The notes beneath the pieces were generated by a model. It saw only the letters and a program-made list of their open reading frames with translations. It ran no database searches and was not told where the DNA came from. The position numbers were made by a program, and so were the translations under genes. Shown in pieces: positions 27,191 through 34,617 of a stretch of 64,000 bases of DNA. The DNA lies in NCBI GenBank assembly GCA_027451965.1, contig DAIDHJ010000001.1, positions 424,963-488,962 on the forward strand, given 5' to 3'. Origin of the DNA: Candidatus Adlerbacteria bacterium. Its GTDB lineage: Bacteria > Patescibacteriota > Minisyncoccia > Phycocordibacterales > SBAW01. The first letter of the stretch is position 1. Each line of letters begins with the position of its first letter.

Positions 27191-27262
27191 TCCGGTGTAG
27201 CTCAATGGTAGAGCAGCTCCCTGTTAAGGAGTTGGTTGTAGGTTCGAGTCCTACCGCCGGAG
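27191..27262 (+). tRNA. tRNA-Asn (anticodon GUU)
   Basis: TCCGGTGTAGCTCAATGGTAGAGCAGCTCCCTGTTAAGGAGTTGGTTGTAGGTTCGAGTCCTACCGCCGGAG forms a cloverleaf with a 7-bp acceptor stem, anticodon loop CTGTTAA and TTCGAGT T-loop. Confidence 0.88.
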
Positions 27263-27560
27263 CAAAGTAGTCGAGTTAAGGTCAGAATCTCCCTTTTGTC
27301 CTTGATTCATCGAGGTATTTTCTGGTTCGTAGGCTTGATTCAGTTTTGGCATCCAAAATGCAAGATATTCGCCCGCCGATGTGTAATTCGGCTTGATGGT
27401 GCGCCTGTTTTGAGTCAGGTTCGTAAACGTACAGATACCATCTATTTCGGAATGGTATTACGAACCAAATTGGGTTGAAATACCATTGGTACACCATGGA
27501 AAGTCGGCACTTGGAGATGCTGTTAAAGTGCCTCAAACTAGGGTTTAATGAAGGCGTAAT

Positions 27561-27743
27561 ATGGGTAGCAAAATCATCAAAGAGCATTTGGAGGCACTGG
27601 ATGCCGAGAAGAAATACGATAAGGAGTTTATTCGTATCCTCCAAGGAGCAAACGAGCAAAACCTGGATGGAGAGAGTGTGGCAGAGGAGGTAATTAAAGC
27701 CATCAACGCCAGATATGTTAAAAGTCAAAAAGATAACTCTTAG
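27561..27743 (+). CDS. small hypothetical protein (60 aa), first ORF of the RloC-like operon
   Basis: ATG preceded by GAAGG 6 nt upstream. Its 3' end overlaps the start of the 818-aa gene by 29 nt, and that gene has no SD of its own, which suggests translational coupling. The protein is predicted helical and acidic. Confidence 0.3.
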   Translation: MGSKIIKEHLEALDAEKKYDKEFIRILQGANEQNLDGESVAEEVIKAINARYVKSQKDNS

Positions 27744-30171
27744 CGGCTTTCGGGGGATGCTTAAGCCCCAGGAATTGACGCTCACACGCAAAGGTGAAAA
27801 CTCTCCTTCTTCCTTGGTTCTCTACGGACTAAACAGTTCGGGCAAAACATCTTTTGTCGATGGCATCGAATGGTTTCTATCCCCTAACAATGAGATTGAG
27901 TGGCTCAAGCGTGAAGATGCAAGAGAGCGTGCTTATCCGCACCAAGAAGCACAGGACGGCGATAGTTTCGTCGAGATTGATTTTGCCGATGACAAAAAAG
28001 AAATCGGTGTACTACGTAAATCTTTTAATCAAAAGAAAGTAACCCAGCCAGGTTTATCCTCCGAAACCGATTTTGAAAAGGTTTATCAATCTTTTGTCAT
28101 TCGACCTTACCTTCGGTATCTAGAAGTGATTGATTTCGTTTATAACCGCACAGGCCTAGAAAAATATCAAAAACTAGCGGGTTGGATGGGGTTTGAAAAC
28201 GAGCTTTCGTTTCAAGAAAAGATAGCGCTGGATATTCTGCCTGAACTTAAAAGAAAGGAGAAAAACCTCACGGATAACGTAGCACTATTTGAGCGTCAAC
28301 TTGTACAGCTTATGGGTGCTGGGAAATTTGCTGATGAAGCAAGCATACTCGAATTTTGCAATGCAATTTTCACAAAACATAAGGTGAATCTCTCTTCAAG
28401 CATCAAAGATATCCCAAGCAGACTCGAAGAATTAAATAAATTAAAAAGCGCAGCAGGAGTAGCTGTAAAGGTGAGCAAGCTTACCGAGGTGGAGGTCTCA
28501 CTCACTCAAGTAAGTGTGGACGACGTTTTAATCAACGCAGTAGATAAATTGAACGAGACCCTAACTCGGTTCCTTAAAGATAAAGCACTGGTTCAGAAGA
28601 TAGATGTGATTGATGTTTATACACAAGCTTTGGATATCCTGAATCGGAACACGGATGCAAAAACAAGTTGCCCTGTATGCGGTACCAGCTGGGATAGAGG
28701 CAAATTGCAGGAGCACATTAAAGAAGAACTAACCTTGCTTGAAAAGATAAAACAAGAGAAGGAAGAGATTGCTAGAACTATTACTTCAACGAAGTCTCTT
28801 GTGAGAAGAGAGCAAGAAATGGTGAAGCAAATTATTTGGAAGTACGAAGAGGGGCAGAAAATCCTCCCAAATATTTCATACGAAAAACTCCAAGAATATC
28901 AAACAGCACTAGCTGCTCTAGATGGCGAGTTTGGCGGGAACATTTTTGAGAAAGGCAGAATTTCATCTTCACTAAGTCTAGATGATATCCCTAAAATAAA
29001 TACGGAAAAAGATGCTGCATTGGCTGCTATTGGCGTCGAAAAAGCAAAGCTCCAGCTGTCAAAAGATGCTCTTAGTTTGAGTTCTGACACAGAGAAAATC
29101 GCTCAAATAAAAGATAAATGGAAAGAAATCTTGGAGGCAAAAAGTGAACTTGCTTTCTTTACTGCTGAATACAGCAAATTCGCGGGGCTAGGAAACGCAT
29201 TGGTAAAGTTAATACAAGAAAATATCAAGAGCAGGTTTGGCGAGATGTCAGCCCAAATCGGAAAGTATTTTGGGATTCTTCGTAGCGACAAGGATATTAA
29301 AGACATCGAAATATTACTTAACGAAGCAAAAGGGAAAGCGGCGGGTCGCTCCGCTGAGATTCAATTAAATTACTACGACATTACCGTCAAACCCGCGTAT
29401 AAAGTATTAAGCGAGTCCCTTCTTAATAGCTTGGGTCTCGCTGTTTACTTTGCATGCGTAAGACAATTTAACGAAGACTGCAAGTTTGTAGTTCTCGATG
29501 ACATCATGAATAGCCTCGATATTGATAACAGAGATACCGTATTGGATTTAGTCGAGCAAGAGTTTTCTGACTATCAATTTATCTTGCTGACTCACGACTT
29601 TTATTGGTTTCAGAAGATTATGCGTAGGTTCCCAAACTGGATAAGCAAGAAGATAAAAGGCTGGGATTACAAGACTGGCTCTAAGATTGATTTTGCCCAA
29701 ACAAGTAAAGAAGAAATTGAAGAGCTATTGTCTGATGCCACCACGGTTGAAGATGCTGGCTTTAAACTGGGACGCCACATTGAAGGCATCCTGAATGAAT
29801 TGTGTGAAAACCTCTGGGCAGAAATAAGATACCGATATACAAAAAACGACCCTCCCGCAATGGAAGAGCTTTTTGATGCTCTCTATAAAAGGCTGAAGAG
29901 CAAAGTGAATCAAAATCCGATTGTGGAGAAGGTTGAGAATGCTAAGAAGTATGAGCCTGTTTTACGCAATTTTACCGCACACGCTCGAAGCAATAGCGCT
30001 TCTACCGTTTCTCCAACCGAGGTAAAACGAGCAATGGAAGAATGGTTCATTCTTGAGGAGGATTTGTGGTGCCCTGATTGCAACCGCTACGTTGAGTACC
30101 ATAGGTCTAAAGATGCAATTGAATGCAAATGCGGCAAAAAGAAGCTCGAAAAGGTATCGACCAAAACCTAG
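27715..30171 (+). CDS. RloC/PrrC-like ABC-ATPase with zinc-hook coiled coil and C-terminal HEPN-like nuclease domain
   Basis: 818 aa. The N-terminus (KKITLSGFRG ... LYGLNSSGKTSFVDGIEWFL) is a RecF/SMC/AAA_13-type head with Walker A. The central coiled coil carries CPVCG, a Rad50/SbcC-like zinc hook. The C-terminal head has a signature-like LLNSLGLAVYF, Walker B/D-loop FVVLDDIMNSLD and H-loop ILLTHD. It is followed by a roughly 190-aa tail with VLRNFTAHA (an R-N-x3-H HEPN motif) and a terminal zinc ribbon CPDC...CKCG. The reading frame is unambiguous; the functional assignment is by motif only. Confidence 0.75.
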   Translation: MLKVKKITLSGFRGMLKPQELTLTRKGENSPSSLVLYGLNSSGKTSFVDGIEWFLSPNNEIEWLKREDARERAYPHQEAQDGDSFVEIDFADDKKEIGVLRKSFNQKKVTQPGLSSETDFEKVYQSFVIRPYLRYLEVIDFVYNRTGLEKYQKLAGWMGFENELSFQEKIALDILPELKRKEKNLTDNVALFERQLVQLMGAGKFADEASILEFCNAIFTKHKVNLSSSIKDIPSRLEELNKLKSAAGVAVKVSKLTEVEVSLTQVSVDDVLINAVDKLNETLTRFLKDKALVQKIDVIDVYTQALDILNRNTDAKTSCPVCGTSWDRGKLQEHIKEELTLLEKIKQEKEEIARTITSTKSLVRREQEMVKQIIWKYEEGQKILPNISYEKLQEYQTALAALDGEFGGNIFEKGRISSSLSLDDIPKINTEKDAALAAIGVEKAKLQLSKDALSLSSDTEKIAQIKDKWKEILEAKSELAFFTAEYSKFAGLGNALVKLIQENIKSRFGEMSAQIGKYFGILRSDKDIKDIEILLNEAKGKAAGRSAEIQLNYYDITVKPAYKVLSESLLNSLGLAVYFACVRQFNEDCKFVVLDDIMNSLDIDNRDTVLDLVEQEFSDYQFILLTHDFYWFQKIMRRFPNWISKKIKGWDYKTGSKIDFAQTSKEEIEELLSDATTVEDAGFKLGRHIEGILNELCENLWAEIRYRYTKNDPPAMEELFDALYKRLKSKVNQNPIVEKVENAKKYEPVLRNFTAHARSNSASTVSPTEVKRAMEEWFILEEDLWCPDCNRYVEYHRSKDAIECKCGKKKLEKVSTKT

Positions 30172-30180
30172 AGACAAAAC

Positions 30181-30348
30181 ATGCTCACGATTGACGAATG
30201 CAGAGCACTTATTCCTGATGGCGAGGAATTGTCTAACGAAGAAATTGCGCAAATAAGAAAAGACCATTACGAGATGATTCAATTGGCTTTTGATGTATGG
30301 GTCTTGCAGAGAAAAAATAAAAAACATGAACCCCGAATTGAGAAATAA
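30181..30348 (+). CDS. possible small ORF (55 aa) between the RloC-like gene and the next ORF
   Basis: ATG 10 nt after the TAG stop of the 818-aa gene. Translates to MLTIDECRALIPDGEELSNEEIAQIRKDHYEMIQLAFDVWVLQRKNKKHEPRIEK. It was absent from the ORF track because it is under 60 aa. It overlaps the next ORF start by 23 nt. SD is weak (GAGA). Confidence 0.2.
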   Translation: MLTIDECRALIPDGEELSNEEIAQIRKDHYEMIQLAFDVWVLQRKNKKHEPRIEK

Positions 30349-30784
30349 ATTATCTTGGTGGCATCTTAAGGCTAAAAAAGAGAAGGACTTATGGGTTCGC
30401 TTCGTCCTTTACTATTTGATATTTGACGCCTTTATAAGCGACGGCTCTGGAAGCGGAAATGACCAGGAGAAACTTCGCTGGTTCGTTAATAGCGAGAATT
30501 CCTTAAAAGCGAGCATAGATGGAGGATGGCAGACAAGATTACTTCCGTTGGCAAAAATTCTAAAAGGAATGTCGCCAGTTCAAGATATGCGTCCTGGGTC
30601 AACCAGAGACGTTTCTGTAATTGACGAAAACAATCTTGAAGAAGTCTTTGCTGTTATATATCAAATTAGATGCAATCTTTTCCACGGCTCAAAAGACGTC
30701 ATGAATGGCAGAGATTCCAACCTCGTTGAACATGCAGGGAATTTCCTGCGCTATATGATTGATTGGTGGTTTGTCAGTACCTGA
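30326..30784 (+). CDS. hypothetical protein with HEPN-like R-x4-H-G motif
   Basis: The start is set at the internal Met (MNPELRNKLSWWH); the ORF-track frame starts at 30290. Trp-rich and helical. Has QIRCNLFHGSKD (R-x4-H-G) in the C-terminal third. Its stop TGA (30782-30784) is followed after 1 nt by the ATG of the next ORF. Confidence 0.45.
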   Translation: MNPELRNKLSWWHLKAKKEKDLWVRFVLYYLIFDAFISDGSGSGNDQEKLRWFVNSENSLKASIDGGWQTRLLPLAKILKGMSPVQDMRPGSTRDVSVIDENNLEEVFAVIYQIRCNLFHGSKDVMNGRDSNLVEHAGNFLRYMIDWWFVST

Positions 30785-30785
30785 T

Positions 30786-31673
30786 ATGTCCAACAAATAT
30801 TTGATGCAAAAAAGAGTGAAGACCCCTATCTATACTTTTGATAAATCAGAGTACAGAGAGTTCACCTTTGAGCCTTACCGCGATAACCAATCGCTCGAAG
30901 GAGACCTCCTCGTATCCCGAACCCTTGAAGCTGAGAACGGGAACGAGGCTATGCGTAAATTCTTTACGGAATTAGAGCCCATCCTCAATGCCATATCTGT
31001 CCTGACACAGACAATCATTTTTCCCCTCCCAACTGCAAGTCATTTGCTCTATAAGCTGGAAAACAACCCAGACAATCTTTTTTACGCAAACATTGCAAAC
31101 GATAGCGAGACGGCTGGAATGGGCTTAGAAAGTGAAGTTTTTGAGGATGTAGAGAAGCTGCTGAATATTGCTAATCCTATTGCCTTTTCCTACCTGAGAG
31201 ACGCTATAGGGACACTTTCGAGTGTTCAGCAACTATCAATGCTCATAAGCGCGGCGGAAGCCTTCGCGGGGACTTCGAAGACAAAAGGCTTTTGTAAGAA
31301 GTGTGGAGAGCCTTACGAGTACTCTTCGACTGACAAGGACAAGCTGAGGCTCATCTTAGGCGATGCGCTGTACAAGAGACTCTATACCGACGGCTTACGG
31401 CACAAGCTTGCACATGGTGGGGATTTCAACGGAGAAGCAGTCGCGGCAACCGCTGGGGAAACATATTCCAGAATCAGTCTTGGGTACCTGAAAGAGACAT
31501 ACAGTCTGAGTTCACTTGAAGAAATACACGGAGCGCCGCGCTCGTTTGTTTACGAATACTCCCACCACGGAGCTAAAATGCTCAGTTCAGATGCTCCAAC
31601 TTTAAAGCTCGTGGAAGCAGAGTGGGATTCGCCTGTTAGCTTTGCTTTCGCCGCCCTACCAGCAGACTACTAA
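30786..31673 (+). CDS. hypothetical protein with CxxC and HEPN-like R-x4-H-G motif
   Basis: 295 aa starting from ATG at 30786, arranged TGAtATG with the upstream ORF. Contains CKKCGEPYEY and LRHKLAHGGDF (R-x4-H-GG). Confidence 0.5.
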   Translation: MSNKYLMQKRVKTPIYTFDKSEYREFTFEPYRDNQSLEGDLLVSRTLEAENGNEAMRKFFTELEPILNAISVLTQTIIFPLPTASHLLYKLENNPDNLFYANIANDSETAGMGLESEVFEDVEKLLNIANPIAFSYLRDAIGTLSSVQQLSMLISAAEAFAGTSKTKGFCKKCGEPYEYSSTDKDKLRLILGDALYKRLYTDGLRHKLAHGGDFNGEAVAATAGETYSRISLGYLKETYSLSSLEEIHGAPRSFVYEYSHHGAKMLSSDAPTLKLVEAEWDSPVSFAFAALPADY

Positions 31674-31895
31674 CGACAAATATTTGGGGCTGGCTATCAA
31701 ATTAGGTGAGGGCATCCTCCCGCAAAAACACGCGGGCAAAACCGAAACTGGCACTACCCAAAATCGCCTGAAGGTTCTCTACCTGATAACAGCCAGCAGT
31801 TGTCGAATGTGCTGGAGCGACACCGACGGCTGTGGGAATATAACCTCCCATCGAGCGGTTCGTATGCTATCCCTCCATTCGAGCAAGGAAATATA

Positions 31896-31921
31896 GACAA
31901 AAATATAAAAAGTATGGTATA
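31896..31921 (+). promoter_or_regulatory. sigma70-like promoter with extended -10 for the 150-aa gene
   Basis: TAGACA -35-like element, 18-nt spacer, then tgGTATAAT extended -10. It is followed by a strong SD (TTGGAGGAAAT) and the ATG at 31945. The -10 lies inside 31905-31921; spacer and -35 coordinates are approximate. Confidence 0.4.
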
Positions 31922-31944
31922 ATTTCCCCTAGATTGGAGGAAAT

Positions 31945-32397
31945 ATGAAGGTGGTTTACCATGGATCTCCCTTCCTCGGACTACGTACGGTAGAACCAAA
32001 ACTAAATCGAAGAATACGAAATGGGCAAGTGATATTTGAAGCCCATGCATTCCATGCTACTCCCCTGCGTTGGATTGCGCTTGCTTACACAGCAACTCAA
32101 TTTTCCAATAATGCATACACGATGGGCGTCGATTTATATGGTTCTTACACGAAAAGGCGAATCGCTATCTTTGGGAGTACTTCTCTTGAAGAAAGTTTGG
32201 TTCGCTTATATGGATCTGGTGGGTACCTCTATACATTTGATGCATCACATTTTATCCGCCTTCCTGGTTTAGGAGACTTGGAAGTTATCACACAAGACTC
32301 GGTGCATCCAATATGTAGTGAACTCATACTAGATCCCGTGAAGGAAATGGAACGAGAAGGAGTAGAGTTTCATTTTGTACGTAAGAAGAATACTTAA
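31945..32397 (+). CDS. hypothetical protein with N-terminal YHGS motif (possible H-Y-E ADP-ribosyltransferase-like fold)
   Basis: 150 aa with its own promoter and a GGAGG SD. The N-terminal MKVVYHGSPFLGLRT resembles the H-G-S/T NAD-binding motif of PARP/DarT/Tpt1-type ART-fold proteins. That resemblance is inference only. Confidence 0.5.
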   Translation: MKVVYHGSPFLGLRTVEPKLNRRIRNGQVIFEAHAFHATPLRWIALAYTATQFSNNAYTMGVDLYGSYTKRRIAIFGSTSLEESLVRLYGSGGYLYTFDASHFIRLPGLGDLEVITQDSVHPICSELILDPVKEMEREGVEFHFVRKKNT

Positions 32398-32512
32398 CAG
32401 GCCGATGATTCATCGGCCTGTTTTTAGATTATTATTGAAACAATATGACTTATGTATACCACGCCGTACCCTCTGAAATAATAGGATCAATACTCTACCC
32501 TCTTAATCAGTT

Positions 32513-32543
32513 ATAAGTTCGAACGTCCTCTAGTAGGCGGAGC
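32513..32543 (+). repeat. direct repeat copy 1 (ATAaGTTCGAACGTCCTCTAGTAGGCGGAGC)
   Basis: 31-nt element that reappears at 33209-33239 with one mismatch. The two copies flank the GNAT cassette. Confidence 0.65.
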
Positions 32544-32641
32544 ACTAAATTGACGAAATATAGTTTTTGTGTTAAAAAAACAGCAGACTCGGAATAATCC
32601 GATTTTTGATCTTCTCATCATATCGCACTATGGAGGTGCTA

Positions 32642-33184
32642 ATGAGCATTAGTATCGTTCTCGCCTCTCCAAAAGATGCGCGAGGTATTCAGGAGGTCTT
32701 CTACGATACGTGGCTTGCTACCTATCCCAACGAAGAACTTATGATCAGAGTTGGAGACATCAAAGACTTTCTCAAGAACCATTTATCTACCGAATCTCTT
32801 GAGAGACGACGTCAGCAGATCAGTGTGAATCCATCACCTCACGGAAGAATATTTCTGGTAGCAAAAGACGAAGAACGGGTTGTTGGAGTATGCAACGTAG
32901 TTACCTATCCAACACATAACCAGATCCACAGCCTCTACGTGCTTCCTGAATATCAACGCATGCGCATTGGGAGTGACCTATGCTATAAGGCATTTGGATA
33001 CTTCAATTCATTATTCCCCACTACTTTGTGGGTCGCCTCTTATAATTCAAAAGCCATTCGATTCTATGAATCGCTAGGGTTTCGAGATACTGGGGAGCGT
33101 AAGGAAGATGAGACGATTCGTTTCCGAAATGGGATTCGCATGCCTGAGATGGAAATGGTTCGTGAACCTAGGTCGGCACTGTAA
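32642..33184 (+). CDS. GNAT family N-acetyltransferase
   Basis: Start after a GGAGGTG SD. Contains the acetyl-CoA motif YQRMRIGSDL (Q/RxxGxG/A) and IRFYESLGF. The ORF-track frame starts earlier, at 32606. Confidence 0.8.
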   Translation: MSISIVLASPKDARGIQEVFYDTWLATYPNEELMIRVGDIKDFLKNHLSTESLERRRQQISVNPSPHGRIFLVAKDEERVVGVCNVVTYPTHNQIHSLYVLPEYQRMRIGSDLCYKAFGYFNSLFPTTLWVASYNSKAIRFYESLGFRDTGERKEDETIRFRNGIRMPEMEMVREPRSAL

Positions 33185-33243: not shown

Positions 33244-34617
33244 TTACTTACCCTTCCAAATTATTTTTGCGAATGGCAACCATTCAGGAATTCTATTAAT
33301 GTATGGAATATATGGAAACAAGATGAGCAACAATGCACAGAATCCTAATATTTCTGCTCCATCTCGATCACCGTTTTGATCATTAGCAAGAATAGTATGA
33401 TCCAAAAAACCAAGAGGTGCGAGCCACCACGCACCTGGTGGTATAAATCCTTTTTCTTCCCGCATCATTCCCCATTGATCGGTAGTAATATGCAGTTGCG
33501 TTGCCTCTGCATCCAGTACACCGGTATCAGCAAGGAACCGTAAGGAGTAGGTCGGCTGTATTGCAACATTTTCCGAGTCTAGGATGGGTGTATACGTACC
33601 TTGTTGTCCCATGAGTACTAATGCACTAATTACTGGAATAAGAGGGTTACTATTTTGTTGTACAACGAGAGAACCGTTATTTTGGAAATAATTTGATGCC
33701 TGTGTAATGTATTTCTGCTGCAGAGTAGTATTTGCCTCCTCAAAAAGAGCCAGATCATCTATACCATGTGTTGAGGCATAAGATGCATAAGGTATGGAAA
33801 CATAGATAGCACGTGTGTCATAAGTGTAGGGATCTATTGAGTCTAGGTAGGTAGCAGTATCGGAGGTATGGGTAAATTCACTCAAAAGCGTTTGTGCCAT
33901 AAGAGCTGGAGACTCCTTTGCAACCTGGGTAATAGTTACAGGAGCAATAAATGGTGAGGGAAATAATAATGCCAAAAATAAGATCACAGAGCCTAAGATA
34001 ATCCCTCTCAAAAATAATCTTCTATGATCCGCCGATACCATTGTATATGAGACATTTTTGCGATACGGTTTCGCAATACCTCGTATCTTCACCAAGGCAT
34101 AGTGAATACATATCACAGTAACTAGAGAAATGGGGATATATATTACATGCAAACCATATACCTGAGCATAGTTCAATGTACTGATGAATTTTCCTATGAA
34201 TGCCCCGTTATAAAAATCTGCCCCTTGTAATGCTCGGTACTGGGAAGAAAAATCACCGCGCAAACCGTACCCAAATTCTGCTTCCGTTAGTACTACTAGC
34301 AATGCAATGACTCCCACTATCCATGTCAGTTTTCTGGGCGTTCGAAAAGCGCTGGTAGAAAATACAACCAAAAAATGAAGAAGAATGATTAGCACAAAAG
34401 CCTGTGCAGACCATAGATGAATACTACGTACTACTACACCCCACGGGTTCGTGAGCCACCACGAAGGACCGAAGACAATCATGGTGAGACCAGATGCAAT
34501 CAATAGTGTTAAACAAGTCAGTGCCAAAAAACCGAGAGAATAAAAAATAGTATTTCCATAAGAAGGAACCTTGGTAATAAAGATTTTCTCTTTTGTTTTA
34601 TTCCACCACTGAAACAT
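33244..34617 (-). CDS. cytochrome b (QcrB/PetB N-terminal di-heme domain)-like membrane protein with long C-terminal extension
   Basis: 457 aa. Helix B VVVRSIHLWSAQAFVLIILLHFLVVF has two His 14 apart, followed by PRKLTWIVGV. Compare Bacillus QcrB IVRGMHHWGASLVIVMMFLHTLRVFF...PRELNWIVGV. Helix D GLHVIYIPISLVTVICIHYALVKIRGIAKP again pairs two His. The C-terminal roughly 250 aa are a non-cytochrome extension. Confidence 0.7.
   Translation of the reverse strand: MFQWWNKTKEKIFITKVPSYGNTIFYSLGFLALTCLTLLIASGLTMIVFGPSWWLTNPWGVVVRSIHLWSAQAFVLIILLHFLVVFSTSAFRTPRKLTWIVGVIALLVVLTEAEFGYGLRGDFSSQYRALQGADFYNGAFIGKFISTLNYAQVYGLHVIYIPISLVTVICIHYALVKIRGIAKPYRKNVSYTMVSADHRRLFLRGIILGSVILFLALLFPSPFIAPVTITQVAKESPALMAQTLLSEFTHTSDTATYLDSIDPYTYDTRAIYVSIPYASYASTHGIDDLALFEEANTTLQQKYITQASNYFQNNGSLVVQQNSNPLIPVISALVLMGQQGTYTPILDSENVAIQPTYSLRFLADTGVLDAEATQLHITTDQWGMMREEKGFIPPGAWWLAPLGFLDHTILANDQNGDRDGAEILGFCALLLILFPYIPYINRIPEWLPFAKIIWKGK

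What the first reader, a model, noticed from the sequence alone, without database searches (positions are those of the whole stretch)
31890..32397. Stand-alone 150-aa gene with strong promoter/SD and a PARP/DarT-like YHGS N-terminal motif
An extended -10 (TGGTATAAT), a TAGACA -35-like element and an AGGAGG SD precede this ORF. That argues for constitutive high expression, unlike its neighbours. The protein begins MKVVYHGSPFLGLRT. The H-G-S/T element within beta-strand 1 is the NAD+-binding signature of the H-Y-E clade of ADP-ribosyltransferase folds (PARP HGS, Tpt1 HGT, DarT YH.TH). Located beside a putative defence operon in an island, this could be a toxin, for example a DNA or RNA ADP-ribosylating enzyme, or a 2'-phosphotransferase-like enzyme. 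The assignment rests on one short motif.
Basis: inference. Interest (0 to 1): 0.55.

Follow-up and report, generated by a model that had tools for sequence, protein, structure and literature searches.

The report
Small Arr-like ADP-ribosyltransferase candidate gene
This is a real, separately transcribed 150-residue gene from an uncharacterised protein family found mostly in ultra-small (Patescibacteria) bacteria; it probably has the fold of a minimal NAD+-using ADP-ribosyltransferase, but nothing suggests it is a toxin of a toxin-antitoxin or defence system.

Summary
ORF 31945..32397 (+) encodes MKVVYHGSPFLGLRT... It has the best promoter-like site of the window and a strong terminator. The Shine-Dalgarno is tGGAGGa, not AGGAGG.

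The protein is a divergent relative of Pfam DUF6886, below that family's threshold. About 100 representative clusters exist, and the close ones are in Patescibacteria genomes.

Across 119 full-length relatives:
- H6-G7-[S/T]8 is essentially invariant and lies at the end of predicted strand 1.
- Position 37 is H or F (Y in remote relatives), followed by A-[T/S] and an aromatic residue 11 positions later.
- E113 is invariant (118/119) next to a predicted strand.

Two independent AlphaFold models (pLDDT 94 and 95) both return rifampin ADP-ribosyltransferase Arr as best solved structure, but weakly (E 0.05-0.2, TM 0.34-0.43). Profile comparison with Arr is collinear and beats all shuffled controls, but it is not significant by hhalign probability. 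Against natural-protein controls only the short-form profile beats them, clearly for Arr-2 and marginally for Arr-ms.

No macrodomain, NADAR or any other partner is conserved next to it in about 25 loci. The neighbouring Lamassu-like operon is unrelated to it.

Verdict: probably a new, antitoxin-less minimal ART-like enzyme of unknown substrate. The toxin and DarT/PARP readings are not supported.

The parts
31894..31899 (+). -35-like hexamer TAGACA
   Evidence: 11/12 site with an 18-nt spacer; one of only 6 such sites in 64 kb
31915..31923 (+). extended -10, TGGTATAAT
   Evidence: the only 11/12 site in the window with TG; shuffle expectation 0.06
31936..31940 (+). Shine-Dalgarno core GGAGG, 4 nt before the ATG (context tTGGAGGAaat, not AGGAGG)
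   Evidence: read directly
31945..32397 (+). CDS, 150 aa; divergent DUF6886-related, Arr-like ART candidate
31960..31968 (+). codons H6-G7-S8, end of predicted strand 1; candidate NAD+-binding HG[ST] motif
   Evidence: H 118/119, G 119/119, S/T 119/119
32053..32088 (+). codons H37-A38-T39 ... Y48: aromatic/His in predicted strand 3, then a helix with an aromatic residue 11 positions later (same spacing as the ART Y-x10-Y)
   Evidence: position 37 H 78 / F 38; A38 111/119; position 48 Y 109 / F 6
32281..32283 (+). codon E113, immediately before predicted strand 114-116, after the F103...G108-L109-G110 loop; candidate catalytic Glu
   Evidence: E 118/119
32396..32422 (+). intrinsic terminator hairpin (12 bp, 7 GC) followed by TTTT; overlaps the stop codon

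Best explanation
The gene encodes a single-domain, cytoplasmic, minimal ADP-ribosyltransferase-like enzyme of an uncharacterised family. The family is a distant branch of DUF6886. Its closest characterised structural relative is the rifampin ADP-ribosyltransferase Arr.

Inferred mechanism: NAD+ binds in a cleft formed by H6-G7-S8 at the end of strand 1 and by H37-A38-T39/Y48 in strand 3 and the following helix. E113, just before the strand that follows the F103...GLG loop, polarises the ribose-nicotinamide bond. ADP-ribose is then transferred to an acceptor.

The gene has no conserved partner and occurs in ordinary chromosomal contexts. The acceptor is therefore more likely a small molecule or a terminal phosphate or hydroxyl (Arr/KptA-like chemistry) than an essential self macromolecule. 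In this genome it is transcribed alone from a near-consensus extended -10 promoter and ends at its own terminator.

Shown: the gene, its signals, the family, the conservation pattern, the confident models and their nearest solved neighbour. Inferred: NAD+ use, catalytic roles and the acceptor.
For: 1. It is a real conserved gene. There are 50 close homologues and 104 representative clusters. The AF2 model has pLDDT 94.4.

2. The conservation pattern fits the ART active-site layout. HG[ST] lies at the end of strand 1, [H/F/Y]-A-[T/S] lies in strand 3 with 31 residues between H6 and H37 (Arr H19 to Y49 is 30), and an aromatic residue lies 11 positions after residue 37. E113 is kept in 118/119 just before a predicted strand. 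The Arr layout is described in PMC6092378.

3. Two models of relatives only about 25% identical both give Arr as the top solved structure. The window protein gives 9iba at E 0.047, prob 0.69, with 9iaf and 2hw2 also listed. P0149 gives 9iba at prob 0.63, TM 0.43, and 2hw2 at prob 0.57, TM 0.42. Other hits are noise with TM below 0.25, apart from low-ranked hits to CNFy domains 4-5 (TM 0.35-0.38) and the TreTu toxin, both of which I recall as ART-related.

4. hhalign of the family against an Arr profile gives a collinear end-to-end alignment: YHGS~YHGT, VFA[TS]~IYFS, W~W, GGYxY~GRGYIY, F~F, and the C-terminal helix-strand. Global scores are 17.4-18.0, against 150 column-shuffles with mean 3.3, sd 2.7 and max 13.9. 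The short-form profile against single Arr-2 scores 16.4, against 84 natural proteins with max 7.5.

5. The N-terminal 17-18 residues match E. coli KptA 100-117 (LYHGTASRF...). The score is 21.5 against a control maximum of 17.2 for the short-form profile, and 20.5 against a control maximum of 22.0 for the larger profile.

6. The only recurring Pfam family besides DUF6886 is a sub-threshold match to ART-PolyVal PF18760, in 3 relatives.

7. A phage-borne relative (P0141) is followed by a DUF4326 gene and has a NUDIX gene upstream. DUF4326 is proposed to process ADP-ribose-linked phosphates (PMC9503650).
Against: - No link to ARTs reaches conventional significance: Foldseek E 0.05-0.2 and TM below 0.5, hhalign probability 4-13%.
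- PDB profile searches find no ART.
- The larger family profile against single Arr sequences is no better than controls, and Arr-ms is only borderline.
- The window protein lacks an acidic residue at the position aligned with Arr's catalytic D84. It has L106-P107, where most relatives have E or D.
- None of the close Patescibacteria loci has NAD+- or ADP-ribose-related neighbours.
- I could not inspect model coordinates, so the spatial clustering of H6, H37 and E113 is unverified.
Confidence: 0.5

Rival explanations
1. It is a conserved small alpha/beta protein of the DUF6886 superfamily whose function has nothing to do with NAD+. The conserved H, E and aromatic residues serve another catalytic or binding role, and the resemblance to Arr is convergent or an artefact of small mixed-sheet folds.
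For: - All ART links are sub-threshold.
- No Pfam ART family reaches its cut-off.
- TM-scores are 0.34-0.43.
- The larger family profile against single Arr sequences is indistinguishable from controls.
- There are no NAD-related neighbours in Patescibacteria loci.
Against: - The same ART family tops the PDB list for two models.
- The collinear profile alignment to Arr beats 150/150 shuffles and the reversed control.
- The motif order and spacing fit the ART active site.
- The N-terminus matches KptA.
- A relative is linked to DUF4326 and NUDIX genes.
Confidence: 0.3
2. It is a Tpt1/KptA-like enzyme (H-H-h type ART) that transfers ADP-ribose to a terminal or 2'-phosphate on RNA, or makes a soluble ADP-ribose derivative.
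For: - The close family has two histidines placed as in KptA: LYHGT / VHLS against VYHGS / FHAT. The H-to-second-site spacing in short forms is 24, as in KptA.
- The local profile match to KptA 100-117 is above controls for the short-form profile.
- The H-H-h clade is associated with RNA repair, small molecules and soluble ADPr derivatives (PMC9503650).
- One phage relative is next to DUF4326, proposed to process ribose-linked phosphates.
Against: - It is a 150-aa single domain, without the N-terminal RNA-binding domain of Tpt1 that carries part of the catalytic Arg-His-Arg-Arg tetrad (established knowledge).
- No PF01885 hit appeared even at E<=10.
- Foldseek returned no Tpt1 structure.
- The second His is F or Y in other subfamilies, and the third position is an invariant Glu rather than a hydrophobic residue.
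Confidence: 0.08
3. It is a toxin or effector (DarT/PARP-like DNA, RNA or protein ADP-ribosylase) belonging to a toxin-antitoxin pair or to the adjacent Lamassu-like defence operon.
For: - It lies 272 bp downstream of an LmuB-like SMC ATPase operon, which itself follows tRNA-Asn.
- Short-form relatives occur on phage-like or conflict-type contigs next to GmrSD_N or R2K genes.
Against: - It has its own promoter and terminator.
- PADLOC finds no hit.
- There is no conserved neighbour of any kind in about 25 loci, and no macrodomain or NADAR gene beside it.
- Homologues sit directly behind ParB, GyrA or a cation ATPase in Patescibacteria chromosomes.
- There is no Pfam DarT or PARP match.
- An antidote-less constitutive toxin would be lethal.
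Confidence: 0.07

Closest known systems
Arr, rifampin ADP-ribosyltransferase (Pfam PF12120 Arr-ms; PDB 2HW2, 9IBA, 9IAF)
   Same: - About 140-150 aa, single domain, stand-alone and without an antitoxin.
- HG[ST] at the end of strand 1, and an aromatic residue in strand 3 about 30 residues later.
- A GxGY-I/L-Y strand followed by a conserved Phe, then a C-terminal helix-strand.
- Top solved-structure hit for two models.
- Collinear profile alignment above all shuffled controls.
   Different: - No Pfam Arr-ms match, and hhalign probability is only 4-13%.
- The family has an extra beta-hairpin plus helix (residues about 59-89) that is absent from Arr.
- Arr Y49 is H here.
- Arr's catalytic D84 and its DPN[V/L] motif are L106-P107-G-L here.
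- The family instead has an invariant E113 that Arr lacks.
Pfam DUF6886 (PF21820), function unknown
   Same: - It is the only Pfam family detected: 39/44 close and 26/49 broad relatives hit it, with a best E of 6e-7.
- Relative P0149 reaches the gathering score (27.2 bits against 27) and carries the precomputed annotation.
- The shared part is the C-terminal half (GGYxY ... F ... E ... P ... helix-strand).
   Different: - The window protein scores 14.1 bits against a cut-off of 27.
- Matches cover only profile positions of about 83-141.
- No paper in the searched library mentions DUF6886.
Tpt1/KptA RNA 2'-phosphotransferase (H-H-h clade ART)
   Same: LYHGT and VHLS in KptA against VYHGS and FHAT here. 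The N-terminal 17-18 residues align with KptA 100-117 at a score above controls for the short-form profile.
   Different: KptA has an additional N-terminal domain and a hydrophobic third site. This protein is a single domain with an invariant Glu. There is no PF01885 or Tpt1 structure hit.
DarT (DUF4433) of DarTG, and PARP catalytic domains
   Same: Only the generic H-x-[ST] element of strand 1.
   Different: - No sequence or structure match was returned.
- There is no adjacent macrodomain antitoxin.
- The size and architecture differ.

Membership tests
ART superfamily (H-Y-[EDQ] / H-H-h type) | H-G-[S/T] (NAD+-binding His) at the end of strand 1 | tested here: met
   H6 118/119, G7 119/119, S/T8 119/119; DSSP strand 3-8 in the model and in the P0149 model
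ART superfamily (H-Y-[EDQ] / H-H-h type) | Second-site Tyr/His in a following strand, with small residues after it and a second aromatic about 11 residues on (Y-x10-Y) | tested here: met
   Position 37 is H 78 / F 38 (Y in remote relatives P0186, P0188, P0189). A38 111/119, T/S39 105/119. Position 48 is Y 109 / F 6. Residue 37 lies in strand 28-39 and residue 48 follows helix 42-47. The spacing in PARP, DT and ETA is recalled from memory.
ART superfamily (H-Y-[EDQ] / H-H-h type) | Catalytic acidic residue at the start of the strand that follows the substrate-recognition loop | tested here: inconclusive
   E113 is kept in 118/119 and lies immediately before strand 114-116, after the F103...G-L-G loop. 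Its spatial position relative to H6 and H37 could not be inspected.
ART superfamily (H-Y-[EDQ] / H-H-h type) | ART fold: significant structural similarity to solved ARTs | tested here: inconclusive
   Arr is the top PDB hit for both models, but at E 0.047 and 0.18, prob 0.69 and 0.63, TM 0.34-0.43. No other ART class is near the top.
ART superfamily (H-Y-[EDQ] / H-H-h type) | Significant sequence or profile similarity to an established ART family | tested here: inconclusive
   No Pfam ART family at threshold; ART-PolyVal only at E 0.096-0.15 in 3 relatives. hhalign against Arr gives P 0.002-0.011 and prob 4-13%, but the global score is above 150/150 shuffles, and for the short-form profile above 84/84 natural controls.
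ART superfamily (H-Y-[EDQ] / H-H-h type) | NAD+ binding and ADP-ribosyl transfer | not testable with these tools
   Needs biochemistry or ligand co-folding.
Arr (PF12120) | Match to the Arr-ms profile; H19-Y49-D84 and the DPN[V/L] motif | tested here: not met
   No PF12120 hit. Y49 aligns with H37. The D84/DPN position is L106-P107-G108-L109 in the window protein. Arr residues are from PMC6092378.
Tpt1/KptA (PF01885) | Two-domain architecture with an N-terminal RNA-binding lobe; profile match | tested here: not met
   150-aa single domain; no PF01885 hit. Only the 17-18-residue N-terminal motif aligns with KptA.
DarT/DarG toxin-antitoxin | DUF4433 toxin next to a macrodomain antitoxin | tested here: not met
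   No DarT or PADLOC hit. The flanking genes are a 304-aa protein of unknown function and a GNAT. No conserved neighbour in about 25 loci.
DUF6886 (PF21820) | Score at or above the Pfam gathering threshold (27 bits) | tested here: not met
   The window protein scores 14.1 bits, E 0.038. Relative P0149 scores 27.2 bits. The family is therefore a distant sister group rather than a member.
Lamassu defence system (as a component) | Co-occurrence or co-transcription with LmuB-type SMC ATPase | tested here: not met
   It has a separate promoter and terminator. No SMC/LmuB gene lies beside homologues elsewhere.

The most novel reading that the evidence does not exclude
The gene represents a previously unrecognised clade of minimal ADP-ribosyltransferases with an H-[H/F/Y]-E active site. 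The clade has cytoplasmic antitoxin-less forms in Patescibacteria, Sec-signal-bearing secreted forms in other bacteria, and short forms in phages and giant viruses. The Patescibacteria enzyme would ADP-ribosylate a small molecule, such as a host-made antibiotic as Arr does, or a nucleic-acid terminal phosphate. This would be a new NAD+-dependent self-protection or RNA-processing activity in ultra-small episymbionts.
Probability: 0.3. Interest if true: 0.6.

Novelty: new member of a known kind. Interest (0 to 1): 0.35.

Why it matters
If it is an ART, this would add a compact, antitoxin-less ART family next to Arr and KptA. It would give DUF6886-like proteins a testable biochemical assignment. 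It would also point to NAD+-dependent modification chemistry retained in the very small genomes of Patescibacteria, where retained accessory enzymes often bear on host interaction or resistance. Arr-type enzymes matter for antibiotic resistance, so an Arr-like enzyme with a different pocket would be a candidate for a new small-molecule resistance activity. If it is not an ART, it remains an ordinary conserved hypothetical protein.

Tried and rejected
- NCBIfam, PADLOC and PHROGs scans of the protein found nothing.
- phmmer and profile searches of PDB sequences found no ART. The recurring weak hits to a peptidoglycan GlcNAc deacetylase (E 0.03-0.08) and to MecA (E 0.011) cover a generic strand-helix-strand segment and were rejected as non-homologous.
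- hhalign of A1 against a single Arr-2 sequence was not significant.
- The Arr homologue search returned only sequences at least 69% identical, which gave a shallow Arr profile and limited power.
- Fusion partners of longer relatives (S41 peptidase, SAM methyltransferase, DUF6562) showed no common theme.
- Cluster look-ups gave no names or organisms. The window's taxon is therefore not established; only its homologues are Patescibacteria.
- tblastn against GenBank phages and PLSDB plasmids found nothing.
- Only one IMG/VR contig carries a close relative.
- The 23-aa ORF downstream (MTYVYHAVP...) is not a remnant of a second copy: the HMM score is negative, and the window holds a single family copy.
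- Tested as an integration island: there is no repeat of the tRNA-Asn 3' end, and housekeeping genes lie within the low-GC stretch.
- The GNAT next to the gene and the GNAT next to relative P0186 are only 25% identical, so there is no evidence of a conserved pair.
- The Baysarowich 2008 Arr structure paper is not held in the library.

Full report
**1. The observation**

The ORF 31945..32397 (+) encodes 150 aa beginning MKVVYHGSPFLGLRT.

Upstream lie TAGACA (31894-31899), an 18-nt spacer and TGGTATAAT (31915-23). The site matches 11 of 12 consensus positions. Across the full 64 kb on both strands, only six sites reach 11/12 (block-shuffle mean 1.4). This is the only one with the TG extension (shuffle mean 0.06).

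The ribosome-binding site is GGAGG (31936-40), 4 nt before the ATG.

A 12-bp hairpin with a T-run at 32396-32422 overlaps the stop codon. Here the gene is therefore a monocistronic unit. It lies 272 bp after the preceding ORF, and the terminator separates it from the GNAT gene at 32606-33184.

**2. What the protein is**

- Pfam gives only a sub-threshold match to DUF6886 (14.1 bits against a cut-off of 27). NCBIfam, PADLOC and PHROGs give nothing.
- There are 50 close homologues at 42-57% identity, none with Pfam annotation.
- An exhaustive search finds 104 representative clusters.
- 39 of 44 close homologues and 26 of 49 broad ones hit DUF6886 weakly. One remote relative, P0149, reaches its threshold.
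- The family is therefore a divergent sister of DUF6886, for which the paper library holds no mention.

Distribution:
- Of the 21 loci confirmed in species-representative genomes, 19 are in Patescibacteria MAGs, one is in an unclassified 'uncultured bacterium' bin, and a partial match is in an Acidobacteriota MAG. The Patescibacteria groups are Saccharibacteria, Paceibacteria, Kaiser-, Lloyd-, Taylor-, Moran-, Zambryski- and Gracilibacteria.
- Only one IMG/VR contig carries a close relative, and GenBank phages and plasmids carry none.
- The taxon of the window itself could not be named.

**3. Conservation**

Over 119 full-length relatives:
- H6 118, G7 119, S/T8 119.
- Position 37 is H 78 / F 38, and Y in the remote P0186, P0188 and P0189.
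- A38 111, T/S39 105.
- Position 48 is Y 109 / F 6.
- G93 112, Y94 102, Y96 101, F103 117, L109 114, E113 118.

In the AF2 model (pLDDT 94.4, pTM 0.88), H6-G7-S8 ends strand 1 (residues 3-8). H37 lies in the third strand (28-39) and Y48 follows the helix at 42-47. E113 immediately precedes strand 114-116, after the F103...G108-L109-G110 loop.

This is the arrangement expected of an ART active site. In Arr, the HGT motif ends strand 1, Y49 is in strand 3 and D84 is the catalytic acid (PMC6092378). The H-to-second-site distance is 31 here and 30 in Arr. The 37-to-48 distance is the Y-x10-Y spacing that I recall for PARP1, diphtheria toxin and exotoxin A (from memory, not tested).

**4. Structure comparison**

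- Foldseek of the window model against the PDB gives Arr-2 (9iba) first: E 0.047, prob 0.69, TM 0.34. The two other Arr entries also appear, and everything else is OB-fold noise with TM below 0.2.
- A second model was made for the short, DUF6886-type relative P0149, about 25% identical (pLDDT 95.4). It again gives Arr-2 and Arr-ms as the top meaningful hits (prob 0.63 and 0.57, TM 0.42-0.43). Low-ranked hits are CNFy domains 4-5 (TM 0.35-0.38) and the TreTu toxin, which I recall as ART-related.
- These values are below conventional significance. The result is consistent but not conclusive.
- Against predicted viral structures, two uncharacterised proteins match well: a Megaviridae protein at E 9e-8, and A0A8A6C7F4 at E 1e-5.

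**5. Profile comparison**

- A 57-sequence family profile against a 113-sequence Arr profile gave P 0.011 and probability 3.8%.
- A profile of 16 short-form relatives gave P 0.0022 and probability 13%. In global or low-MAC mode it gave an end-to-end collinear alignment: YHGS on YHGT, VFA[T/S] on IYFS, W on W, GGYxY on GRGYIY, the invariant Phe on Arr's Phe, and the C-terminal helix-strand. The family-specific hairpin-helix insertion is gapped out.
- Shuffle controls: real global scores of 17.4 and 18.0, against 150 column-shuffles of the Arr alignment with mean 3.3-3.4, sd 2.6-2.7 and max 13.9. The reversed alignment scores 3.2-5.9.
- Natural-protein controls (84 proteins): the short-form profile scores 16.4 with Arr-2 against a control maximum of 7.5, but only 7.8 with Arr-ms. 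The larger family profile is indistinguishable from controls against single Arr sequences.
- E. coli KptA: the family N-terminus aligns with KptA 100-117 (QFLYHGTASRFLDEI...). The scores are 21.5 and 20.5 against control maxima of 17.2 and 22.0.
- The only recurring Pfam family besides DUF6886 is a sub-threshold match to ART-PolyVal, in three relatives.

Taken together, these results point to an ART, closest to the minimal Arr/KptA types. None is decisive alone.

**6. Differences from Arr**

- There is no Arr-ms Pfam match.
- Y49 corresponds to His.
- Arr's D84/DPN[V/L] aligns with L106-P107-G-L in the window protein. Most relatives have E or D at position 106 or 107, and several read E-P-G-L.
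- The family's invariant E113 has no Arr counterpart.
- The protein is therefore not an Arr. Its active site, if it is one, is H-[H/F/Y]-E.

**7. Context**

- Homologues lie behind ParB and before RelA/SpoT, behind a cation ATPase, 8 bp behind GyrA, or before a MazG-like gene.
- All-against-all clustering of neighbours from 30 loci finds no recurrent partner apart from redundant contigs.
- No macrodomain, NADAR or other antitoxin-like gene flanks the gene here.
- The upstream operon (27715-31673) is Lamassu-like: an 818-aa LmuB-type SMC ATPase (PADLOC 4e-24) plus two unknown proteins. It directly follows tRNA-Asn. It is a separate transcription unit and never accompanies homologues elsewhere.
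- GC falls from about 53% to about 41% at 27 kb. The low-GC stretch runs to about 60 kb and holds pyruvate kinase, G6PD, Nramp and AddA. There is no repeat of the tRNA end.
- An 'island toxin' reading is therefore not supported.
- Remote short-form relatives do occur in phage or conflict contexts. P0141 lies between phage genes, is followed by DUF4326 and has a NUDIX gene upstream. DUF4326 is proposed to process ADP-ribose-linked phosphates (PMC9503650). P0182 lies beside GmrSD_N genes, and P0184 lies behind R2K ATP-grasp genes.

**8. Conclusion**

The best explanation (about 0.5) is a stand-alone, antitoxin-less, minimal ART-like enzyme with an H-H-E site and an unknown acceptor. The acceptor is probably a small molecule or a terminal phosphate or hydroxyl rather than an essential self macromolecule.

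The rivals are:
- a non-NAD function of a DUF6886-like fold (0.3);
- specifically Tpt1-like chemistry (0.08);
- a toxin or defence effector (0.07).

The family is uncharacterised, but it most likely belongs to a known superfamily. I therefore rate it a new member of a known kind, of moderate-to-low interest until biochemistry or a proper structural superposition is done.

Noticed in passing
window 27191-31673: tRNA-Asn (27191-27263) is followed at once by a Lamassu-like operon. It comprises an 818-aa SMC/LmuB-type ATPase (27715-30171; PADLOC LmuB E 4e-24), a 164-aa ORF (30290-30784; weak DzbB hit; contains R-C-N-L-F-H, read by eye as an Rx4H HEPN-like motif) and a 304-aa ORF (30759-31673; contains R-H-K-L-A-H). 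GC drops from about 53% to about 40% at the tRNA.
   Followed up: partly
window 28000-60000: A stretch of about 32 kb has lower GC (40-45%, against 49-53% on either side). It is not a single island: it holds pyruvate kinase, G6PD, Nramp, an AddA-type helicase-nuclease and an RND pump with a HlyD-type adaptor, and there is no repeat of the tRNA-Asn 3' end.
   Followed up: partly
window 32445-32516: A 23-aa ORF, MTYVYHAVPSEIIGSILYPLNQL, lies just after the terminator. Its 'VYH..P' start recalls the family N-terminus. The family HMM scores it below zero and Pfam finds nothing, so it is probably chance.
   Followed up: yes
window 31945-32397 (residues 50-58, 106-107 and the C-terminus): The window protein is among the shortest complete members of its close family, at 150 aa against a typical 163-177. 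It lacks an insert of about 8 residues after residue 51 and the tail of about 15 residues (DLxLPEN...). It also has L106-P107 where 37 of 44 close homologues have E107.
   Followed up: partly
proteins P0082, P0083, P0091, P0092, P0101, P0113, P0098 (relatives, not in the window): One subfamily ('AIFATPDRRIALxYT ... GGxSxEEAL ... INRR') has N-terminal signal-peptide or lipoprotein-like leaders that end right before the YHGS strand (read by eye). This suggests exported forms of the same domain. The source organisms are unknown.
   Followed up: no
contigs carrying P0141 (ENA ERZ1426827, no DNA held), L034, L035: Short-form relatives sit in phage or conflict-type neighbourhoods. One is immediately followed by a DUF4326 gene, with NUDIX upstream and a phage tail-tube gene nearby. 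One is beside two GmrSD_N genes. One is behind two R2K ATP-grasp genes.
   Followed up: partly
BFVD entries A0A5J6VI63 (Megaviridae, 317 aa) and A0A8A6C7F4 (155 aa): These uncharacterised viral proteins match the window protein's model far better than any solved structure does (Foldseek E 9e-8 and 1e-5, TM about 0.6).
   Followed up: no
window 33244-34617 (-): A 457-aa membrane protein with cytochrome b N-terminal domains (E 4e-16) lies two genes downstream. This is unexpected if the genome is a typical fermentative Patescibacterium. The taxon of the window was not established.
   Followed up: no
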